From positions 15,349 through 79,348 of the IMG/VR virus record IMGVR_UViG_3300037557_000128: a stretch of 64,000 nucleotides of DNA, one strand, 5' to 3'. The notes under the pieces were generated by a model. It was given only the letters and a program-made list of their open reading frames with translations. It made no database searches and had not been told where the DNA came from. Shown here piece after piece: positions 33,806 through 49,628 of this stretch. Positions within the stretch are counted from its first letter, which is position 1. Each line of letters starts with the position of its first letter. Origin of the DNA: a virus. The position numbers were made by a program, and so were the translations under genes.

Positions 33806-34713
33806 TCTTGTCCGTCCCAATTTAAATCCGTTCTTTTTAGTTGTTCTTCTTTAAAGTCTTTCTTCATTTCACCAGTATTAGGGTCAAAAGGACATTCTGT
33901 TAAATCTTCTTTGAAATCCTTATGTTTTGGTTCCCAAACTTTCCCTCTTTTATAAGGGCCTGCCATATGAGTGGATTCATCTCCAAAACCTATCCTAGAT
34001 AACTCAGTCACCGTCATACGTTTATCAGGGTGTTCTGTAGTGTATTTTGATTGATTAGTTACATAAGACTCATGGTCTTTAACAGTATATGTCGCAACCC
34101 ATTCTTCTCTTTTGTATGGAATGATTTGACAAATAGGTGTACCCTTTGTTATAACAAATGAATGGTCTACTTTGGGGTATAGAATAATTTGTGAATTGTC
34201 TTTATTTGTATTAAACTTATCAGTATCAATAATACCTTGCCATGTCGCAAAGTAATCATTCTGAAATAAGAAAGGGTCTAAGTAGAAACAAGAATAGCCT
34301 GGTGGTGTAGTTATACACCATGCATTAGACATTTTGAATGCATCTTTGACTGGTGCATCCATAGTAGACATATAGTTAAATGCATCATGCATTTGTATAC
34401 TAGGGTGTGTTGCAGATGAATATTTCTCCATTTCAACATGGACTGTATCTTCAGTGTGATAAGATTTAGAATCAGAATCTTCATTTGTTACACCGTTTCT
34501 TATTAATATATCTCTATTTGCAAGAATAAGATACCCTGAAGATAACCAATCTTGCATTGCAGGACAAGACCTTATAGTCTTATTAACTACACCGTTTACA
34601 ACTTCTGCGACCTTTCCTTTTTTCCACCAATCAGGTGTAACAGACTTTGCAAGAACTGGTTTAAAATTCTTTAAAGTTTCTTTATCGTATGTATGAAAGT
34701 CTATCATCGGCAT
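33802..34713 (-). CDS. DUF6065-like protein (possible dUTPase-like fold)
   Basis: TIRSCPAMQDWLSSGY...TPPGYS...GIIDTD...ITKGTPICQIIPYKRE. Confidence 0.6.
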   Translation of the reverse strand: MPMIDFHTYDKETLKNFKPVLAKSVTPDWWKKGKVAEVVNGVVNKTIRSCPAMQDWLSSGYLILANRDILIRNGVTNEDSDSKSYHTEDTVHVEMEKYSSATHPSIQMHDAFNYMSTMDAPVKDAFKMSNAWCITTPPGYSCFYLDPFLFQNDYFATWQGIIDTDKFNTNKDNSQIILYPKVDHSFVITKGTPICQIIPYKREEWVATYTVKDHESYVTNQSKYTTEHPDKRMTVTELSRIGFGDESTHMAGPYKRGKVWEPKHKDFKEDLTECPFDPNTGEMKKDFKEEQLKRTDLNWDGQE

Positions 34714-35392
34714 GATAATTTTCCCCCTCTTCTTCTAATCTGACCTCGTCTCCACGAACCACTAATGAACGTCTATCCATGTACCTCGAACTTGGGTCGG
34801 GTGCATCTGCACCATGTGGTATTCTTCCGTCAAACATAATAAGTCTATTTGGTTTAAAATCAATCTCACCTATTTGGTGATTCTTAATATGTTCATCTCT
34901 ACCGTCTAAACCCTGTTGAGGTTTATCATATAATCTTAATGTTCCACCCCACGCAGGATTCCAATATCTATTTGGGTAATATAGAAATGAAAGATTCCAA
35001 CTGTCTTCTTCTGCACAATCTTGATGTGTAGTTCCCTGTAATCCTTGAGTCTGACTATTTAGGCCTGCGTATTGAAACCTTACCCATTTAAAACCAAACT
35101 CAGTTTGAAGTCTTCTATCTAAGTAATTTGTAAACCAAGTGTCTTCGATTCTGACATCTTTATCGATTTTATGAAAGTTTCTAAAAAATGTTGCACCCCA
35201 AAAACTATGGTGTGGTAAACCAGTTGAAGAACCACTACTGACTTGATTTGTCTTACTCCATATGTTATCAAGAGAGATTCTTTCATCATAATGATGATGT
35301 AATGGTTGAGCCAACCAATCATCTAATACATAAACTTTTGTTAAGGGTAAAGTCTGTATTTTGAAAGGTTCATCTAAATGAACAATCTCCAT
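34682..35392 (-). CDS. 2OG-Fe(II) oxygenase (prolyl-hydroxylase-like)
   Basis: THQD...WGGTLRLY...PNRLIMFDGRIPHGA...RRSLV. Confidence 0.85.
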   Translation of the reverse strand: MEIVHLDEPFKIQTLPLTKVYVLDDWLAQPLHHHYDERISLDNIWSKTNQVSSGSSTGLPHHSFWGATFFRNFHKIDKDVRIEDTWFTNYLDRRLQTEFGFKWVRFQYAGLNSQTQGLQGTTHQDCAEEDSWNLSFLYYPNRYWNPAWGGTLRLYDKPQQGLDGRDEHIKNHQIGEIDFKPNRLIMFDGRIPHGADAPDPSSRYMDRRSLVVRGDEVRLEEEGENYHADDRLSYIR

Positions 35393-35997: not shown

Positions 35998-37518
35998 TTA
36001 TTGCGTGGAGTCATAGAGGTTTTTGTACTTGTTGTATACTTCAAGATTATTTATAGAGTCAAAATTCATATCATTTATCCAAGGCCCGCCCCTAGTGTAA
36101 TGAATCCCAGTGTAATCCCACTTCTCTTCAGGGTTGTCATAACCTTCGACAAATATATATTTTTGAGGTATTTCAGATATTGCATTAGTCCATTCGAACT
36201 GATGTAGTTGTTTTCCTGTCCAAGTGTTCACAACTTCAGGTGTTAACTTCTTACAGTCCTCATGACTGTTGTTGAAAAACATCATTGAAGACCACAATTT
36301 ACATGGATAATCTATGTTTACTTCTCCATTGAACTTAGACTCGTCATGTTTATATTGTGGGTATTTGATACACGCAACTGCATCATCAGGATTTAGATAA
36401 TAGAACATAGGTAGTAATGACTTCTTAAATATAAAATCGTTATCCACAAATAGACTAAACCCTTCATAGTTCTCTAAGTGTGGTATAAGAAATCTACTGT
36501 ATGTAAATTCAGTACTTTGATTTGCGTACTCCCTATTATAATCGGGAAGTTTAGAAATGTCAAGCAATTTAATGGTTGGACTAAATCTAGTGTACTCTTG
36601 AAACTCACCCAGTGAATGTGCATCTGAGATTGTTTGTGTGATTGACTTTTCACACACTTTCTCTAAATCATTCATTGTACTATCATAACCGATATAAACG
36701 GTTAGTGGTTTACCTGCAGAAAGTTTATGAACCTTTTTATTAAACTTAAAGACATCATCTCTAAATCCAAGTTCTGCTAAATCTGTTTGCCATTCTATCA
36801 CACCCCGACATAGTTGGAATGCAATATTTTTATGTCTTCCTCTTTTGTCTAGTTTATCGCCCCAATACTCTAATACTTCATCAAGTGTTGTACTTGGAAA
36901 ATCTGAGAGTTGTCCAGTCTTATCCCATATCATACACTCCATATCGTCATTTTCCATTTCTTCAAATACGCAAGAACGAACAGAGCCTGGGTGGATTGTT
37001 AATTGAATTAGGTCATCAACTGGATTTGTTGTATAACCTTGAATTGGTGCCCAAAGTCCTTCTTCTTGAATACTTTGAGTTAACCAGTGTGCTTTTGCAC
37101 TATGGTAATAACAAGAACCTACTACTTCTTTTACTCTTGGGTCTTCTTTATGAGACGGTCTAACATTTACAACAGTATCTAAAATGTTAACTTCTTCATC
37201 TTCTTTTTGGAATCCGAATCCTGCGTGATTTCCCACCATGTTTAAACTAGAATAACCATGAGGAAGATACCTATGATAATAATTAGACTTATCTAATAGA
37301 CCATTAAAACTCATGAATCTTTTTTCTTTTCTTAATTGAAGTGTATCACCCCATTTAAAGATTTTAAGTGGTGGAAGAATTTCTTCAAACAACCACTGTA
37401 TGATTTTATATGATTCTTTATCTGTTTCACCAATATTAAGGGAACCTAAATGTAAGGCGTCCATAGTTTCTTTGGTGATAAGAGATTGAGCTTGCTCTAG
37501 TGTAGTAATTTTTTCCAT
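35998..37518 (-). CDS. Fusion of ParB/Srx-like domain and GT-A glycosyltransferase (GT8/CDI-like)
   Basis: C-half VYIGYDS, STEFTYSRFLIP, FVDND (DxD), WSSMMFFN, HYTRGGPW; N-half SIQEEGLWAPI...HPGSVR. Confidence 0.8.
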   Translation of the reverse strand: MEKITTLEQAQSLITKETMDALHLGSLNIGETDKESYKIIQWLFEEILPPLKIFKWGDTLQLRKEKRFMSFNGLLDKSNYYHRYLPHGYSSLNMVGNHAGFGFQKEDEEVNILDTVVNVRPSHKEDPRVKEVVGSCYYHSAKAHWLTQSIQEEGLWAPIQGYTTNPVDDLIQLTIHPGSVRSCVFEEMENDDMECMIWDKTGQLSDFPSTTLDEVLEYWGDKLDKRGRHKNIAFQLCRGVIEWQTDLAELGFRDDVFKFNKKVHKLSAGKPLTVYIGYDSTMNDLEKVCEKSITQTISDAHSLGEFQEYTRFSPTIKLLDISKLPDYNREYANQSTEFTYSRFLIPHLENYEGFSLFVDNDFIFKKSLLPMFYYLNPDDAVACIKYPQYKHDESKFNGEVNIDYPCKLWSSMMFFNNSHEDCKKLTPEVVNTWTGKQLHQFEWTNAISEIPQKYIFVEGYDNPEEKWDYTGIHYTRGGPWINDMNFDSINNLEVYNKYKNLYDSTQ

Positions 37519-37551: not shown

Positions 37552-38412
37552 TTAACTTGTAACTGGTGTAGCAGGCCATTGTTGAGATAGTGTACTATCC
37601 CACCTAATGACTGGTGTTCTACCTTGTCGGGCATAAGTTCCAGGCGTCCTATGTTGATATGTGAACGGTGTCTGACCTTGTCTTGCATATGTGCCAGGCG
37701 TTCTATGTTGATAAGTCGTTGGTGTTTGACCTTGTCTAGCATATGTACTTGGTGTTCTATGTTGATAGGTAAATGGTGTTTGACCTTGTCTCGCATATGT
37801 GCCAGGCGTTCTATGTTGATATGTAGTAGGTGTTTGACCTTGTCTAGCATATGTGCCAGGCTGTCTGTTTTGATATGTAGTAGGTGTCTGACCTTGTCTA
37901 GCATACGTTCCTGGCTGCCTATTACTATATGTAAATGGAGTCTGTCCTTGTCTCGCATATGTTGTAGGTTGACTAGCAATATATGGATATGGATTTTGTC
38001 TATTCGCAATATAAGGTTGTTGTCCAGCTACAGGATTCCTATAGGTAAATGGACTCCTATTATTATATGTGAACGGACTCTGACTATTACTAGGTTGTCT
38101 TGCGTTCGCAGGATACCTTGCGTTATATGTGAATGGACTCTGACTATTACTAGGAGACTGTCCATTAGCAGGATACCTTGCGTTATATGTGAACGGTTGT
38201 CTCGCATTACTAGGAGACTGAGCATTCGCAGGATACCTTGCGTTATAGGTATACGGAGTCCTTGCGTTATAGGTAAATGGACTCTGACTATTACTAGGAG
38301 ACTGTCCATTAGCAGGATACCTTGCGTTATAAGTTCCAGGCTGCCTAGCTGAAGCAATGGCAGGTTGCTGGGTATTAGCGATTACTGGTTGTTGTGCTTG
38401 TCCGATTGCCAT
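37552..38412 (-). CDS. Pro/Tyr/Gln/Arg-rich repeat protein 'B' (partner of 38412-39863)
   Basis: 286 aa, almost all repeats; no K, E or C and one D; coupled to upstream stop. Confidence 0.85.
   Translation of the reverse strand: MAIGQAQQPVIANTQQPAIASARQPGTYNARYPANGQSPSNSQSPFTYNARTPYTYNARYPANAQSPSNARQPFTYNARYPANGQSPSNSQSPFTYNARYPANARQPSNSQSPFTYNNRSPFTYRNPVAGQQPYIANRQNPYPYIASQPTTYARQGQTPFTYSNRQPGTYARQGQTPTTYQNRQPGTYARQGQTPTTYQHRTPGTYARQGQTPFTYQHRTPSTYARQGQTPTTYQHRTPGTYARQGQTPFTYQHRTPGTYARQGRTPVIRWDSTLSQQWPATPVTS
37612..37968 (-). repeat. 54-bp coding tandem repeats (PGTYARQGQTPxTYQHRT, about 6.5 copies)
   Basis: Recurrent gcatatgtgccaggcgttctatgttgat / gtttgaccttgtc. Confidence 0.9.
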
Positions 38413-39863
38413 TATCTTTTATTCCCCCCGCCGTTATGAACTAACACACCTTCTGTAAAGTATGTTTTAGTGTGTTCAACGGAAGTTAAATGATAGACTG
38501 TAGCAGTTCCATTTTCTGTTATGGAGTTAACTGTTACCCCTGATTGACCAACTGTAAAGACTTCGTCTCCTACTGCGAGTTCTCCACTTAGTTCTATTCC
38601 CCAATCAACGTCTTTTAACTCAATATCACACTCTTCCTGATTCGCATATTTCCAACCTGAATCAGTGTGTATTGGGTGTCCACCTGTTACACCTAGTGTT
38701 TTTCCATTTGATAATTCTACGTTCCAAACTTTTATGTTTTCTCTTGGAACCATGACCTCAGTAACATTCTGAGGCATAAGTTTACCATGACTAAAGTCAA
38801 ATGTCATTACTGCATCTCCAACATTAACGTTTTCTATGTTCATATGATTGTTATCAGCCATCAAAATTTGTGTTCCAGCAATGAAACACCCACCACCACC
38901 GCCACCATACGGATAAGTGTATGGATTACGATATGCATACGAAACTGGTGTCCTCTGTTGAAAGGTAAATGGATTCTGACTGTTTGCTATATAAGGAACT
39001 CTGTATGTAAATGGGTTTCTATATGTTCCAGGCTGTCTTGCATTAGCAATGTATGGTTGTCTTGCGTTTGCGATATAAGGAACCCTGTATGTAAATGGGT
39101 TTCTATATGTGAATGGATTTCTTGCATTAGCAATATAAGGAACCCTATATGTAAATGGGTTTCTGTATGTTCCAGGCTGTCTTGCGTTTGCGATATAAGG
39201 AACTCTGTATGTAAATGGGTGTCTGTATGTTCCAGGCTGTCTTGCGTTTGCGATATAAGGTTGCTGTGCGCTTACAGGACTTCTATAGGTAAATGGATTC
39301 CTGTTTTGATATGTACTAGGTGTCTGACCTTGTCTTGCATATGTTGTAGGTTGACTAGCAATATACGGATAAGGTTGTTGTGCATTAGCAATATATGGTG
39401 TTTGATTGCTCGCAATATACGGATAAGGATTTTGTCTATTCGCAATATATGGAGTCTGATTACTTGCTATATACGGGTAAGGGTTTTGTCTATTCGCAAT
39501 ACTTGGGGTCTGATTGCTTGCTATATACGGGTAAGGTTGTTGAGCGTTCGCAATACTTGGAGCTTGAGCATTTGCTATATAAGGGTACGGATTTTGTCTA
39601 TTCGCAATACTTGGGGTCTGACTATTAGCAATGTATGGATAAGGTTGTTGTGCGTTCGCAATACTTGGAGTCTGACTATTAGCAATGTATGGATAAGGTT
39701 GTTGAACTGAAGTCTGACCCGAAGCGTTATTCCAAGTGGAAGGCCCAGTCTTTACATAAACCTGTTCTGCAGCTTTCCAAGTCGTTCCACCCGTCTTTAC
39801 CCACGCACCTTGTGTGGCATTCCAACCTGTAGGTGTTTTGACGTGTTGTTTTCCTGTTGCCAT
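38412..39863 (-). CDS. Repeat protein 'A' with N-terminal VKTxxxW domain and C-terminal Hint domain
   Basis: WVKTGGTTWK/VYVKTGPSTW; repeats aa 56-318; G6 linker; CFIAGTQI...VLVHN. Confidence 0.88.
   Translation of the reverse strand: MATGKQHVKTPTGWNATQGAWVKTGGTTWKAAEQVYVKTGPSTWNNASGQTSVQQPYPYIANSQTPSIANAQQPYPYIANSQTPSIANRQNPYPYIANAQAPSIANAQQPYPYIASNQTPSIANRQNPYPYIASNQTPYIANRQNPYPYIASNQTPYIANAQQPYPYIASQPTTYARQGQTPSTYQNRNPFTYRSPVSAQQPYIANARQPGTYRHPFTYRVPYIANARQPGTYRNPFTYRVPYIANARNPFTYRNPFTYRVPYIANARQPYIANARQPGTYRNPFTYRVPYIANSQNPFTFQQRTPVSYAYRNPYTYPYGGGGGGCFIAGTQILMADNNHMNIENVNVGDAVMTFDFSHGKLMPQNVTEVMVPRENIKVWNVELSNGKTLGVTGGHPIHTDSGWKYANQEECDIELKDVDWGIELSGELAVGDEVFTVGQSGVTVNSITENGTATVYHLTSVEHTKTYFTEGVLVHNGGGNKR
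38433..38888 (-). other. Hint (intein-like) autoprocessing domain, no homing endonuclease
   Basis: Cys1 block CFIAGTQILMAD...IENVNVGD, TGGHPI (TxxH), VYHLT...YFTEGVLVHN. Confidence 0.85.
39375..39698 (-). repeat. 54-bp coding tandem repeats (PYPYIANSQTPSIANAQQ, 6 copies)
   Basis: Recurrent ttcgcaatacttgg..tctga / ggataaggttgttg. Confidence 0.9.
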
Positions 39864-47195: not shown

Positions 47196-47912
47196 TTATG
47201 TTTGATACTGTGCCGAAGGAACAGATTGGTGAATTTGTTTTACAGTAGGTGTTCCATCGTTCACATAAACTTTATCCAACTTCCTTAAAGTTCCACCATC
47301 ATTCACGAATACCCCTTTAACTTTTGCAAGAGGCCCAATAGTTCTAGTTGTTGGATAAGTTACCTGATATGCATACGGTTGTTGGAATGTGTACTGTGTC
47401 GTATAGGGAACCTGATAAATGTTTGGTTGTCTTGCTTGTGCGATATAAGGTTGTTGTCCACTTACAGGACTTCTATAAGTTGCAGGCTGTCTGTTTTGAT
47501 ATGTAAACGGAGTCTGACTATTTACAGGACTTCTATAAGTTCCAGGCTGTCTTGACTGATATGTTCCAGGCTGTCTTGCCTGTGCAATATATGGATACGT
47601 TACTTGCCCTTGTCTAGAATATGTAAATGGTAATCGTCCCTGTCTTACATATATGCCTGGCTGTCTCGCTTGACCAATAGACGGTTGTTGTCCAGCTACA
47701 GGACTTCTATAAGTTCCAGGCTGCCTTGCTTGTGCGATATAAGGTGTCTGACTATTTACAGGACTTCTATAAGTTCCAGGCTGTCTCGCATTACCAATAG
47801 ACGGTTGTTGACCACTTACAGGGTTTCTGTAAGTGTTAGGTTGTCTCGCATTACCAATAGAAGGTTGCTGTCCAATTGCAGGGTATGGATATGGTTGTTG
47901 TCCTATAGGCAT
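47196..47912 (-). CDS. Repeat protein 'D' with C-terminal VxVND domain (partner of 48666-49628)
   Basis: Repeats aa 7-187; C-terminus KVKGVFVNDGGTLRKLDKVYVNDG; own late promoter at 47958-47965. Confidence 0.85.
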   Translation of the reverse strand: MPIGQQPYPYPAIGQQPSIGNARQPNTYRNPVSGQQPSIGNARQPGTYRSPVNSQTPYIAQARQPGTYRSPVAGQQPSIGQARQPGIYVRQGRLPFTYSRQGQVTYPYIAQARQPGTYQSRQPGTYRSPVNSQTPFTYQNRQPATYRSPVSGQQPYIAQARQPNIYQVPYTTQYTFQQPYAYQVTYPTTRTIGPLAKVKGVFVNDGGTLRKLDKVYVNDGTPTVKQIHQSVPSAQYQT

Positions 47913-48664
47913 TACGCTACCCCCAAATAGTCTACTTGTTTTGCTTGTTTGACTTCATATTTATAGTTATTACTCCAATTATTTGGGTGCGACTCTTTTA
48001 AACTCTTAATATGATTTTTCGGGAATACATAACATACGTCCATGTTCCAAGCTATAATACTTTTACGTTCATTCGTTTCCATTTTAGGGGCACGGTGTAA
48101 TAACCAAGAAGGGAATATAAGCATATCTCCTTCCTCAGCTTTAGGTTGTATAATTTCTTGCGTTTCAGGATTCAAAAATTCTGTAATATACTTTTGATTT
48201 GGTACTTCTATAAAATATACTGCTGACCATTGACACCATTGATGATTATCCCAACTGATATAATCTGATTGAAACATTTGGTGATACCACATATGCATAA
48301 TATTAAATTTATATTCTAAACCAGTAATTTCTGGCTGTATATGAAACCTTGCGTGGTCATGAAATTTATTCTCTACAGCATCTAAGAACATTTTCTTATA
48401 TTCTATATGAGGATACCCCTTTACATTCATATCCCATTCATCAATATCTCCACTACCACCAGTATAATCATTAATTGAGTCTTGGTATTGCCAACCTGTT
48501 GGTAAGATAGGGGAAGAAGGGTGGTTATGCCCATCAAATTTAGTAATTCCTAAATTATAATCTTGATTACCAATTTGAGTAGGTAAAGCGTCAAAGAAAT
48601 CTAAAAGACTCTTATTAAGTTCTTTATGATTATCAATCGTATATTTGTATATTAAATTATTCAT
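47912..48664 (-). CDS. Putative 2OG-Fe(II) oxygenase (TIGR02466-like)
   Basis: MWYHQM...WDNH...WSAVYFI...EEGDMLIFPSWLLHRAP...RKSIIAWN. Confidence 0.8.
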   Translation of the reverse strand: MNNLIYKYTIDNHKELNKSLLDFFDALPTQIGNQDYNLGITKFDGHNHPSSPILPTGWQYQDSINDYTGGSGDIDEWDMNVKGYPHIEYKKMFLDAVENKFHDHARFHIQPEITGLEYKFNIMHMWYHQMFQSDYISWDNHQWCQWSAVYFIEVPNQKYITEFLNPETQEIIQPKAEEGDMLIFPSWLLHRAPKMETNERKSIIAWNMDVCYVFPKNHIKSLKESHPNNWSNNYKYEVKQAKQVDYLGVA

Positions 48665-48665
48665 G

Positions 48666-49628
48666 TTAACCTAGTAAAGCAAAGTACAAAGATGCACCAT
48701 TACTATTCGGAATATAAATCGGGCTGCCTACAATGGCACCTTGAGATGCCCCAGTATGATGAATACCGCCAGTAACAGTAAAATCTGTGGTTCTTGTTAA
48801 TGTAGTATAATTTGAAGAACTTGACCCGATCCGACAAGTTGTCCAGTTAGTGTTAAGACTACTCCAAGATAATTTTAATCCACCACCGTCACGATGAGAA
48901 TAAACAGTTAAACCATCTCCATCTAGACTCAAAGCTGGAGACATATTTGTTGCTTGAAAATAAACACTAATCTTTCCGCCAGGTTCATATCTAGTAACAT
49001 CTCCATTCGAAGTGAATGTGTAAATGTAAGGTTGTGTCCCTGTTGCTTGATAGGTAAATGGCGACCTGTGATTATATGTAAATGGAGTCTGACTATTTAC
49101 AGGACTTCTATAAGTGAACGGAGTCCTGTGATTATATGTAAATGGAGTCTGACTATTTACAGGATTTCTATAAGTTCCAGGCTGTCTTGCCTGATAGTTA
49201 AACGGAGTCTGACTATTTACAGGATTTCTATAAGTGAACGGAGTCCTGTGTTGATAGGTAAATGGAGTCTGACTATTCGCATTGTAAGGATACGGTTGTT
49301 GGTCGCTAGCAGCATACGGATACGTTGCTTGAGCTTGTCGTGCATATGTAAATGGAGTCTGACTATTAGCAATATATGGAGACTGACTGTTTACAGGATT
49401 TCTGTAAGTGTTAGGTTGTCTTGCGTTTGCGATATAAGGTGTCTGACTATTTACAGGATTTCTATAAGTGAACGGTGACCTGTGAGCGTAAGTGAACGGA
49501 GACTGCTGACTTGCATTTCCTTGTGCATCATATTGTGCAGTAATAGGAGCAGTTCCAATCGCAGGTTGTCTCGCAATATACTGTTGTTGAAAACTAGTAC
49601 CAGTGTTTATAAATATTTCTTTAGACAT
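48666..49628 (-). CDS. Repeat protein 'C' with ~115-aa globular C-terminal domain
   Basis: Repeats aa 22-200 (TYRNPVNSQTP etc.); non-repetitive C-terminus. Confidence 0.85.
   Translation of the reverse strand: MSKEIFINTGTSFQQQYIARQPAIGTAPITAQYDAQGNASQQSPFTYAHRSPFTYRNPVNSQTPYIANARQPNTYRNPVNSQSPYIANSQTPFTYARQAQATYPYAASDQQPYPYNANSQTPFTYQHRTPFTYRNPVNSQTPFNYQARQPGTYRNPVNSQTPFTYNHRTPFTYRSPVNSQTPFTYNHRSPFTYQATGTQPYIYTFTSNGDVTRYEPGGKISVYFQATNMSPALSLDGDGLTVYSHRDGGGLKLSWSSLNTNWTTCRIGSSSSNYTTLTRTTDFTVTGGIHHTGASQGAIVGSPIYIPNSNGASLYFALLG

What the first reader, a model, noticed from the sequence alone, without database searches (positions are those of the whole stretch)
37935..39375. Each pair shares a self-complementary central 'dyad' segment
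Seen in sequence: A and B both contain the identical peptide PYPYIASQPTTYARQGQTP (DNA core gcatatgttgtaggttgactagcaatata near 37965 and 39337), at exactly the point where the two copies would face each other in the antiparallel alignment. C and D likewise share FTYxRQxQxTYPYxAxxxQ at their crossover. The unit TYRxP-VxSQxP (6Y+6S) is self-complementary too. Inference: the heterodimers descend from a self-pairing 'palindromic' ancestor by duplication and mirrored repeat expansion, and the dyad may nucleate zipping.
Basis: partly seen in the sequence, partly recalled or inferred. Interest (0 to 1): 0.72.

Follow-up and report, generated by a model that had tools for sequence, protein, structure and literature searches.

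The report
Palindromic module in mirror-coded phage fibre
Two neighbouring repeat proteins of an uncultured marine T4-like phage read as "reverse complements" of each other, and the 19-residue peptide they share is a self-complementary ("palindromic") word of that pairing code, so it is real and under selection, but it is a by-product of the code and not a conserved assembly centre.

Summary
A (37552-38412) and B (38412-39863) share the 19-mer PYPYIASQPTTYARQGQTP. It is their longest common peptide (0.2% of segment shuffles reach 19). When B is laid forward over A reversed, proline on proline, the two copies face each other exactly. C and D share a 21-residue analogue (14/21 identical) that is also exactly self-facing.

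The antiparallel frame is real. In 53 B/A and 24 D/C non-redundant pairs from viral metagenomes, segment lengths mirror each other. An aromatic segment faces an equal-length non-aromatic one in 93% and 87% of blocks, against 46% and 43% in the parallel orientation. Repeat lengths co-vary (r = 0.98 for B/A).

In such a code, any word made of a segment followed by its own complement must appear in both chains at facing positions. The dyad is that corollary. It occurs in only 5 of 53 pairs and 3 of 57 further B-like proteins. Other palindromic words are much commoner, and the unique register survives its in-silico deletion.

Natural single-chain D-C hairpin forms exist, so gene fission or fusion explains the pairs better than a homodimeric ancestor. 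The nucleation idea is untested and gets no support from conservation. No structure is known, and both AlphaFold2 runs failed. Earlier notes of this scan reported the same mirror code in other genomes.

The parts
38412..39863 (-). Gene B (483 aa): conserved 55-aa N-terminal domain, repeat region aa 56-319, GGGGGG-Cys, C-terminal Hint domain
37552..38412 (-). Gene A (286 aa): repeat region from Met1 to aa 267, then the conserved C-terminal tail VIRW...WPATP. Its start overlaps B's stop by one base
39318..39374 (-). B copy of the 19-mer dyad (aa 164-182): YP + YIASQP (non-aromatic half) followed by TTYARQGQTP (aromatic half)
37936..37992 (-). A copy of the 19-mer dyad (aa 141-159). It differs from the B copy at 6 synonymous bases
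39234..39317 (-). B copy of the 28-aa palindromic module 8Y-6Y-6s-8s ('ABba'), directly after the dyad (aa 183-210)
37990..38073 (-). A copy of the same 28-aa palindromic module (aa 114-141), directly before the dyad; 19/28 identical to the B copy and self-facing
38412..38906 (-). Poly-Gly, Cys326 and the Hint domain of B (Pfam Vint 30.3 bits, above the 27-bit cut-off). It ends in HN followed by GGG, with no +1 nucleophile. In the duplex alignment A's Met1 lies opposite B's last repeat, just before the poly-Gly
48666..49628 (-). Gene D (320 aa): repeat region plus a C-terminal globular domain; first chain of the second pair
47196..47912 (-). Gene C (238 aa): repeat region plus a small C-terminal beta domain; second chain of the second pair
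49293..49355 (-). D copy of the second-pair dyad (aa 92-112; aromatic half first, then TYPYxA)
47568..47630 (-). C copy of the second-pair dyad (aa 95-115); 14/21 identical to the D copy and exactly self-facing
47912..48664 (-). 2OG-Fe(II) oxygenase gene lying between D and C in this genome. In the other D/C loci I retrieved the two genes are directly adjacent

Best explanation
A/B and D/C are two-gene fibre proteins whose chains most likely lie antiparallel and pair segment by segment. Each chain is a string of proline-delimited segments of 2, 6, 8 or 10 residues. A segment with an aromatic residue at Pro+3 (FTYRxP, FTYNxRxP, GTYARQGQTP) faces an equal-length segment without one (VxxQxP or ANxQSP, YIANxxxP, YP+YIANSQTP) in the partner chain read backwards, so each protein is the 'reverse complement' of the other. 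In such a code, a word made of a segment followed by its own complement is its own reverse complement. It must therefore appear with the same sequence in both chains at facing positions. The 19-mer is one such word: non-aromatic half YPYIASQP, then aromatic half TTYARQGQTP. It closes the virion-proximal X:X' block, where the non-aromatic role passes from B to A. It has the length of one X:X' unit (18 residues) and uses the same residue pairings as the arms (Tyr opposite Gly, Ile opposite Gln, Ala opposite Arg). Selection keeps the peptide because both halves are interface. It is a lineage-specific palindromic module, one of several, and not a general nucleation site or a relic of a homodimer. 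Shown here: the mirror code, its covariation across pairs, the exact facing, and the synonymous-only divergence. Inferred: that the chains physically pair (probably as a two-stranded beta ribbon, with all prolines in non-hydrogen-bonded positions), and what the fibre does.
For: Mirror architecture: B forward equals A reversed in segment lengths, in the window and in 59 retrieved pairs of very different architecture. 88% of A's prolines coincide with B's in the cognate antiparallel register, against 57% parallel and 53% non-cognate. Repeat-region lengths correlate at r = 0.98 over 182-544 aa. Pairing code: of 2146 facing blocks, the single-segment ones split into 1598 aromatic:non-aromatic, 92 aromatic:aromatic and 56 non-aromatic:non-aromatic. 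Complementary blocks are 92.8% (B/A) and 87.4% (D/C) in the cognate antiparallel register, 46.2% and 43.3% parallel, and 69.8% and 56.6% non-cognate. The window pair scores 31 complementary, 0 same-type and 1 other block, the last being the dyad. Mutual information between facing segments is highest for N-end versus C-end position pairs and lowest on the parallel diagonal. The pattern is not antisense DNA: genes A and B share 0 inverted 11-mers and 86 direct ones. Single-chain D-C proteins have an N arm that mirrors and complements the C arm. In a low-confidence AF2 model of one of them the only long strands are 13-36 and 418-441, whose positions sum to the predicted register 454. The dyad as corollary: it is exactly self-facing, and other self-facing near-identical 18-mers occur in nearly every pair. 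The palindromic 'Bb' unit is present in 37 of 53 B/A and 13 of 24 D/C pairs, while the X/X' dyad is present in 5 of 53 and 1 of 24. Selection: 14 DNA copies of the 19-mer differ at up to 14 of 57 bases, and every difference is synonymous.
Against: There is no structural or biochemical evidence that A and B touch. AF2 gave mean pLDDT of 38 and 34, and no multimer prediction was available. Block composition and covariation can be inflated by repeat relatedness. The anti-diagonal mutual-information pattern could arise from the mirror architecture itself without residue contact. Unlike every other block, the dyad has two internal prolines that do not face prolines, so it could be structurally special. 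It is also perfectly conserved wherever it occurs, which leaves room for a clade-specific role. One pair (L026 against L024) has an extra 20-residue unit in B without a matching change in A, so the matching is not absolute.
Confidence: 0.75

Rival explanations
1. One reading: the dyad is the relic of a self-pairing palindromic homodimer that was duplicated and then expanded in mirror fashion, and it now nucleates zipping of the heterodimer.
For: The segment is self-complementary, exactly self-facing and kept by purifying selection. It is the only block without internal Pro-Pro coincidences. In some relatives whole blocks carry the same self-complementary repeat in both chains (L074, L081), so homotypic pairing is conceivable. 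It sits at the junction of two blocks with different periods.
Against: It is absent from the junction in 48 of 53 B/A pairs, 23 of 24 D/C pairs and 54 of 57 further B-like proteins, and these pairs are mirror-matched just the same. L009 and L010 carry two copies per chain, so it is not a unique centre. The register remains unique without it. No unpaired, fully self-complementary single gene was found; the single-chain forms are hairpins around a non-repeat domain.
Confidence: 0.12
2. The shared 19-mer is a trace of recent gene conversion or recombination between paralogous repeat genes and has no structural meaning.
For: A and B share many direct k-mers (86 11-mers), and the two copies share a 29-nt identical core.
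Against: The two window copies differ at 6 synonymous sites. Copies in the same gene of different phages are closer (1 base to L010) than the A and B copies within one genome. Copies in L019 differ at 12 bases and still encode the same peptide. Conversion also would not place the peptide at exactly facing positions.
Confidence: 0.03
3. The chains do not pair. A, B, C and D are independent extended or disordered proline-rich proteins (extensin-like substrates of the neighbouring oxygenases and glycosyltransferase), or each forms its own beta-solenoid, and the mirror pattern has some other cause.
For: The composition is low-complexity (Q, N, Y, P, R, T, S). AF2 sees no fold. 2OG oxygenases and a glycosyltransferase-like gene are adjacent. 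Periods of 18-20 residues resemble solenoid coils.
Against: No other cause was found for mirror-image co-variation of two genes across 77 pairs with freely permuted block order. Antisense origin is excluded. Free block order (runs of 8s, 8-8-8-8-6-6, changes of period) does not fit a solenoid of constant coil length. The single-chain forms keep the mirror relation between their two arms.
Confidence: 0.1

Closest known systems
[quoted passage not shown]
   Same: It is a phage fibre made of long extended strands that run out and back antiparallel, so outgoing and returning stretches must match in length. It lies in the host-recognition module of a T4-like phage.
   Different: In gp37 both strands belong to one chain of a homotrimer, and iron bound by His-x-His motifs holds them (my own knowledge of the published gp37 tip structure). 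Here the two directions are usually two gene products, there are no HxH repeats or sequence similarity, and the chains obey an aromatic/non-aromatic segment code with proline punctuation.
Antiparallel coiled-coil arms of SMC/Rad50-type proteins (my own knowledge)
   Same: Two long arms pair antiparallel, must match in length, and fold back around a distal domain. The single-chain D-C forms have the same topology.
   Different: Those arms are alpha-helical heptad repeats. The sequences here are proline-punctuated with a two-residue periodicity that is incompatible with helices, and most are split into two genes.
Hint / bacterial intein-like (BIL) autoprocessing domains
   Same: B ends in Gly6-Cys followed by a Hint fold (Pfam Vint above threshold; an intein-like chain of PDB 8w20 at E 4.5e-6).
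   Different: This concerns only B's C-terminal domain, not the dyad. There is no +1 Cys/Ser/Thr after the terminal HN, so canonical splicing is unlikely. The domain is present in only 25 of 57 B-like proteins.
Palindromic (self-complementary) sites in double-stranded nucleic acids (analogy only)
   Same: A word that equals its own reverse complement must occur on both strands at the same place and creates a local two-fold axis. This is exactly the logic of the 19-mer, the 28-mer and the C/D 21-mer.
   Different: The units are peptide segments of 6-10 residues with a two-class (aromatic/non-aromatic), length-matched code, not bases, and the pairing is inferred, not demonstrated.

Membership tests
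Mirror-coded two-gene repeat fibre family (uncharacterised; defined here and in earlier notes of this scan) | Two adjacent same-strand genes whose Pro-to-Pro segment lengths are mirror images | tested here: met
   Window B/A: 33 of 37 A prolines coincide in the antiparallel register. D/C: 22 of 31. The same holds in 53 and 24 non-redundant pairs.
Mirror-coded two-gene repeat fibre family (uncharacterised; defined here and in earlier notes of this scan) | An aromatic (Pro+3 = Y/F) segment faces an equal-length non-aromatic segment | tested here: met
   Window B/A has 31 complementary and 0 same-type blocks; D/C has 19 and 0. Family-wide the figures are 92.8% and 87.4%.
Mirror-coded two-gene repeat fibre family (uncharacterised; defined here and in earlier notes of this scan) | Physical antiparallel association of the two chains | not testable with these tools
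   Only single-chain AF2 was available. Both runs had low confidence.
Hint / Hedgehog-intein superfamily (B C-terminal domain) | Profile match above the curated threshold | tested here: met
   PF14623 Vint scores 30.3 bits against a 27-bit cut-off. The other Hint-type models score below their cut-offs.
Hint / Hedgehog-intein superfamily (B C-terminal domain) | Nucleophilic Cys at position 1, preceded by the cleavage-site residue, and a TxxH block | tested here: met
   GGGGGG-C326 and VTGGHP can be read directly in the translation.
Canonical splicing intein | C-terminal HN followed by a Cys/Ser/Thr +1 nucleophile and a C-extein | tested here: not met
   The protein ends ...VHN-GGGNKR-stop. There is no +1 nucleophile.
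T4 gp37-type needle / tail-fibre tip | Sequence or profile similarity and HxH metal-binding repeats | tested here: not met
   Pfam, PHROGs and PDB searches give no hit for the repeats. The repeat regions contain no HxH motifs.
Collagen-like / extensin-like proline-rich repeats | Gly every third residue (collagen) or Ser-Pro(3-5) blocks (extensin) | tested here: not met
   Pro spacing is 2, 6, 8 or 10, never a multiple-of-3 lattice, and no GXY or SPPPP runs occur.
Curlin / CsgA amyloid repeats | Match to the curlin repeat profile | tested here: not met
   Pfam gives no curlin hit for A, B, C or D. The only hit is a sub-threshold Cementoin match in D (25.5 bits against a 27-bit cut-off).

The most novel reading that the evidence does not exclude
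Proteins here may use a true 'reverse-complement' pairing code, and palindromic words such as the 19-mer may play the part that palindromes play in nucleic acids. They could pair either between chains or as a short hairpin within one chain. An insertion of such a word in one gene would then be tolerated until the partner gene acquires the mirror copy, which would let the two arrays expand in step (compare one against two copies of the dyad plus 28-mer unit in the window and in L009/L010). In the Hint-bearing clade the compact dyad, the only block whose internal prolines are out of register, might also act as a register lock or a hinge.
Probability: 0.15. Interest if true: 0.85.

Novelty: categorically new. 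Interest (0 to 1): 0.66.

Why it matters
The dyad is a small detail, but it is a clean, checkable consequence of an unusual design: two gene products that encode each other's mirror image through a segment-level pairing code. The code holds in dozens of marine phage gene pairs whose repeat regions range from about 180 to 540 residues. I found no match for this design in Pfam, PHROGs or the PDB, none in 50,697 cultured-phage records, and no occurrence of its four signature motifs in the full-text paper library.

If the chains really zip together, three things follow:
- It would be a new way to build a thin, length-programmable fibre in the host-recognition island of abundant ocean phages.
- It would be a natural example of designable beta-type heterodimer specificity.
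- It would be a case where two genes must co-evolve repeat for repeat.

Showing that the shared peptide is a 'palindrome' of the code, and not a nucleation centre, corrects the evolutionary story. The better-supported origin is fission or fusion with single-chain hairpins. It also tells experimenters which deletions would be informative.

Tried and rejected
- AlphaFold2 on the natural single-chain form L180 (single sequence, mean pLDDT 38) and on P0111 with a 28-sequence alignment (mean pLDDT 34). Neither model is usable. Only the coincidence of the two long strands with the predicted register is noted.
- Search for cultured relatives. blastn and tblastn of the locus, of B and of B's N-terminal domain against 50,697 phage records found nothing beyond Hint-domain hits. 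An HMMER search of Melnitz, Mosig, HTVC008M, S-SKS1 and S-H38 with A found nothing.
- Pfam, PHROGs and PDB gave no family for the repeats.
- A full-text search for four signature motifs returned 0 papers. A keyword search on Hint domains and myovirus tail fibres was uninformative.
- Antisense or inverted-duplication origin of the mirror pattern is rejected: 0 inverted k-mers are shared.
- Recent gene conversion as the source of the identity is rejected by the synonymous divergence.
- A long B-(Hint)-A fusion was sought among proteins of 847-2415 aa. Only two Hint-domain matches appeared, and no B-N-terminus plus A-tail protein occurs among the 203 proteins held at that point. This is weak negative evidence.
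- A fully self-complementary unpaired gene (homodimer type) was sought by self-mirror scoring of all collected proteins. None was found apart from the D-C hairpin fusions.
- A beta-solenoid reading of the 18-20-residue periods was considered and set aside, because block order varies freely.
Full report
CONTEXT

The window is part of a 79-kb IMG/VR virus record. Its major capsid protein is 67% identical to that of Methylophilales phage Melnitz and 64% identical to those of the Pelagibacter phages HTVC008M and Mosig. This places it among marine T4-like myoviruses of the pelagimyophage type. The genes in question lie among fibre-like genes, in what the pelagimyophage literature calls the hypervariable host-recognition cluster (PMC7029224).

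Four minus-strand genes encode Tyr/Pro/Gln/Asn/Arg/Ser/Thr-rich repeat proteins:
- B (38412-39863, 483 aa) is followed, with a one-base overlap, by A (37552-38412, 286 aa).
- D (48666-49628, 320 aa) and C (47196-47912, 238 aa) are separated here by a 2OG-Fe(II) oxygenase gene.
- B ends in Gly6-Cys plus a Hint domain.

THE OBSERVATION

The 19-mer PYPYIASQPTTYARQGQTP occurs once in A (aa 141-159) and once in B (aa 164-182), at window 37936-37992 and 39318-39374. It is the longest peptide the two proteins share. When A's proline-delimited segments are shuffled, a match of 19 or more arises in 0.2% of 2000 trials. The two DNA copies differ at 6 of 57 bases, all synonymous.

C and D share a 21-residue analogue with the halves in the opposite order (PFTYxRQxQxTYPYxAxxxQP, 14/21 identical).

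THE FRAME THE OBSERVATION DEPENDS ON

I cut each protein after every proline. In B the segment lengths after the dyad read 8 6 6 8 6 6 8 6 6 8 6 6 8 8 6 6 8 8 8. In A the lengths before the dyad, read backwards, are exactly the same, including the irregular end. B's six '2 8 8' units before the dyad match A's six '8 10' units after it, again read backwards.

This is not peculiar to the window. The search for related loci returned 256 relatives of B in viral contigs, and nearly every retrieved locus has a B-like gene followed by an A-like gene. In 59 retrieved pairs (53 non-redundant, counting the window pair), with B of 272-739 aa and A of 164-559 aa and very different block orders, B forward equals A reversed.

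Quantitatively:
- 88% of A's prolines coincide with a B proline in one ungapped antiparallel register. The figure is 57% in the best parallel register and 53% for non-cognate partners.
- Repeat-region lengths correlate at r = 0.98.
- The D/C family behaves likewise: 24 non-redundant pairs, with 59%, 43% and 40% coincidence respectively.

THE PAIRING CODE

Between coincident prolines I obtained 2146 facing blocks. A segment with Tyr or Phe at Pro+3 almost always faces an equal-length segment without it:
- 8-mers FTYNxRxP against YIANxxxP: 975 blocks.
- 6-mers FTYRxP against VxxQxP or ANxQSP: 589 blocks.
- 10-mers GTYARQGQTP against YP+YIANSQTP: 327 blocks.
- Like-with-like among single-segment blocks: 148.

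Complementary blocks make up 92.8% (B/A) and 87.4% (D/C) in the cognate antiparallel register. In the parallel register they make up 46.2% and 43.3%, and with non-cognate partners 69.8% and 56.6%. The window pairs score 31:0 and 19:0.

Mutual information between facing segments is concentrated in pairs that join the N-terminal end of one segment to the C-terminal end of the other, and it is lowest on the parallel diagonal. This could partly reflect the architecture itself, so I count it as consistent and not as independent evidence.

The mirror relation is not a DNA artefact: genes A and B share 86 direct 11-mers and no inverted ones.

The correct register is unique. It gives 33 proline coincidences and 240 complementary residues, against 23 and 134 for the next-best register.

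SINGLE-CHAIN FORMS

At the D/C position, some phages carry one protein of 445-610 aa. It has D's N-terminus, C's C-terminal domain and a non-repeat centre of about 100 residues. Its N arm mirrors and complements its C arm. Examples are L180:3766-5361, L085:119-1594, L087:141-1607, L023:529-2124, P0099, P0111 and P0084. About 26 clusters cover the full length of P0099, and 13 of them show clear complementarity.

A single chain can only satisfy this pattern by folding back on itself, which supports the antiparallel reading. AF2 could not model these proteins (mean pLDDT 38 and 34). In the second model the only long strands are residues 13-36 and 418-441, and the positions at their ends add up to 454, the register predicted from the prolines. 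I treat this as weak support only.

WHAT THE DYAD IS

With the register fixed by prolines alone, the two copies of the 19-mer face each other with zero offset, and so do the C/D copies. In the Pro-on-Pro register the local two-fold axis runs through the first Thr of the central TT pair, so the identical stretch runs symmetrically from Pro to Pro.

The residue pairs in the dyad are Tyr-Gly, Ile-Gln, Ala-Arg and Ser-Ala. They are the same as between B's YPYIASNQTP units and A's GTYARQGQTP units in the arms. The 19-mer is therefore half a non-aromatic unit followed by its cognate aromatic unit, which makes it its own reverse complement.

Under a reverse-complement rule such a word has to be present in both chains at facing positions.

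The dyad is also not unique:
- Right beside it lies a 28-residue palindromic module (8Y-6Y-6s-8s; B 183-210, A 114-141; 19/28 identical).
- Nearly every pair has one or more self-facing near-identical 18-mers, such as RSPFTYRNPVxxQQPYIA, QPYIANARQPFTYNARTP and ARQPNNARQPFTFQNPFT.
- Writing each duplex as a string of block types, the window reads XaXaXaXaXaXa-D-ABba-BBa-BBa-BBa-aBBa-AA. The palindromic core 'Bb' occurs in 37 of 53 B/A pairs and 13 of 24 D/C pairs, often several times.

IS THE DYAD CONSERVED AT THE CROSSOVER?

Mostly it is not.
- A self-facing X/X' junction is present in 5 of 53 B/A pairs (the window, L009, L010, L019, L067). L009 and L010 carry two copies per chain. It is present in 1 of 24 D/C pairs, the window.
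- Among 57 further B-like proteins from the protein database, 3 have it, and all 3 carry a Hint domain.
- Close relatives (L011, L012, L015, L017; 57-67% identity) go straight from the X block to the 28-mer module.
- Where the dyad occurs, the peptide is invariant although its 14 DNA copies differ at up to 14 of 57 positions. Copies in the same gene of different phages are closer (1 base) than the A and B copies within one genome (6 bases). This rules out recent gene conversion and shows purifying selection.
- Removing the 18-mer from both chains in silico leaves the register just as unique. Its length equals one X:X' unit.

ORIGIN

I found no unpaired, fully self-complementary gene and no long B-A fusion. 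Three facts fit interconversion between a single-chain hairpin and a split two-gene form better than duplication of a palindromic homodimer:
- The gene order is first chain, then second chain.
- The genes are coupled by an overlapping stop and start.
- B's C-terminus (poly-Gly) lies opposite A's Met1 in the duplex.

The direction of change, fission or fusion, is undetermined.

MECHANISM

This part is inference. All prolines of a chain share one residue parity, and the prolines of the two chains coincide. This arrangement is expected if both chains are extended strands of a two-stranded antiparallel ribbon with the prolines in non-hydrogen-bonded positions on the outer edges. The other face would carry Tyr or Phe opposite small residues.

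Free permutation of block order argues against a solenoid with a fixed coil length. At about 3.3 Å per residue, 260 paired residues would give a fibre of roughly 85 nm.

The conserved end (B's N-terminal domain plus A's C-terminal tail, present in all pairs) is probably the attachment end. The variable end (B's C-terminal Hint domain, another domain or none; D's globular domain) is probably distal. None of this has been shown.

COMPARISON WITH KNOWN SYSTEMS

The repeats match nothing in Pfam, PHROGs or the PDB. They are absent from 50,697 cultured-phage records and from five related reference phages. Their signature motifs occur in no paper of the library. All database relatives are unnamed metagenomic proteins.

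The nearest functional analogue is the six-stranded antiparallel needle of T4 gp37 (PMC7291167). In topology, the nearest analogue is the antiparallel coiled-coil arms of SMC/Rad50 proteins (my own knowledge). Membership in the gp37 needle, collagen-like/extensin-like and curlin families was tested and not met; no profile test was run for SMC/Rad50.

Earlier notes of this scan on other genomes reached the same 'mirror-coded fibre' reading, and two of them noted a peptide shared between the two genes with synonymous divergence. I read these notes after my own tests, and they are not independent evidence.

VERDICT

It is partly unsupported: the dyad is not a conserved crossover element, it is not needed for a unique register at the sequence level, and a homodimer ancestor is not indicated.

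The underlying two-gene reverse-complement architecture appears to be undescribed, and it is the real point of interest.

Noticed in passing
window 38412-38906 (B aa 320-483) and A Met1 at 38410-38412: In the Pro-registered duplex, A's first residue lies opposite B's last repeat, immediately before Gly6-Cys326 of the Hint domain. The Hint domain ends in HN-GGG with no +1 nucleophile. This geometry would allow the Hint thioester to be resolved by A's N-terminal amine, joining the two chains into a closed hairpin, or by plain cleavage. Only 25 of 57 B-like proteins carry the poly-Gly-Cys start.
   Followed up: partly
L180:3766-5361, L085:119-1594, L087:141-1607, L023:529-2124; P0099, P0111, P0084 and about 20 further clusters: Natural single-chain versions of the D/C pair: D-like N-terminus, C-like C-terminal domain, mirror-complementary arms and a non-repeat centre of about 100 residues. 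A divergent subgroup (P0132-P0200) keeps both termini but does not follow the aromatic/non-aromatic classification.
   Followed up: partly
L024 versus L026 (B 719 versus 739 aa, A 543 aa in both): Two near-identical loci differ by one extra 6-6-8 unit (20 residues) in B with no matching change in A. This is either a tolerated bulge, a population variant caught before compensation, or an assembly error in a repeat.
   Followed up: no
window 47912-48664; also 34682-35392 and 35998-37518: A 2OG-Fe(II) oxygenase gene sits between D and C in this genome, whereas in the other D/C loci I retrieved D and C are directly adjacent. Another oxygenase-like gene and a GT8-like glycosyltransferase fusion lie just downstream of A. 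Whether they modify the repeats (Pro, Asn or Arg hydroxylation, glycosylation) is open.
   Followed up: no
window 39699-39863 (B aa 1-55) and 47196-47345 (C C-terminal ~50 aa): Both conserved end domains carry short beta-hairpin-like motifs of the type W..V.VK.G..W / VKGVFVNDGGT..K...VYVNDG. AF2 predicts a small beta domain for the C-type end in the single-chain form (residues 489-520 of L180, pLDDT about 77). These are likely the attachment ends of the two fibres.
   Followed up: partly
Such clusters are a published feature of pelagimyophages (PMC7029224), which supports placing this phage in that group. No link to the repeat proteins was tested.
   Followed up: partly
L014, L016, L018 (FTYQVSxPATYPANGQ) and L040, L042 (RQPFTGQNPFT): These are further sequence classes of compact self-facing modules whose internal prolines do not coincide, analogous to the 19-mer but unrelated in sequence. 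Palindromic words seem to have arisen repeatedly.
   Followed up: no
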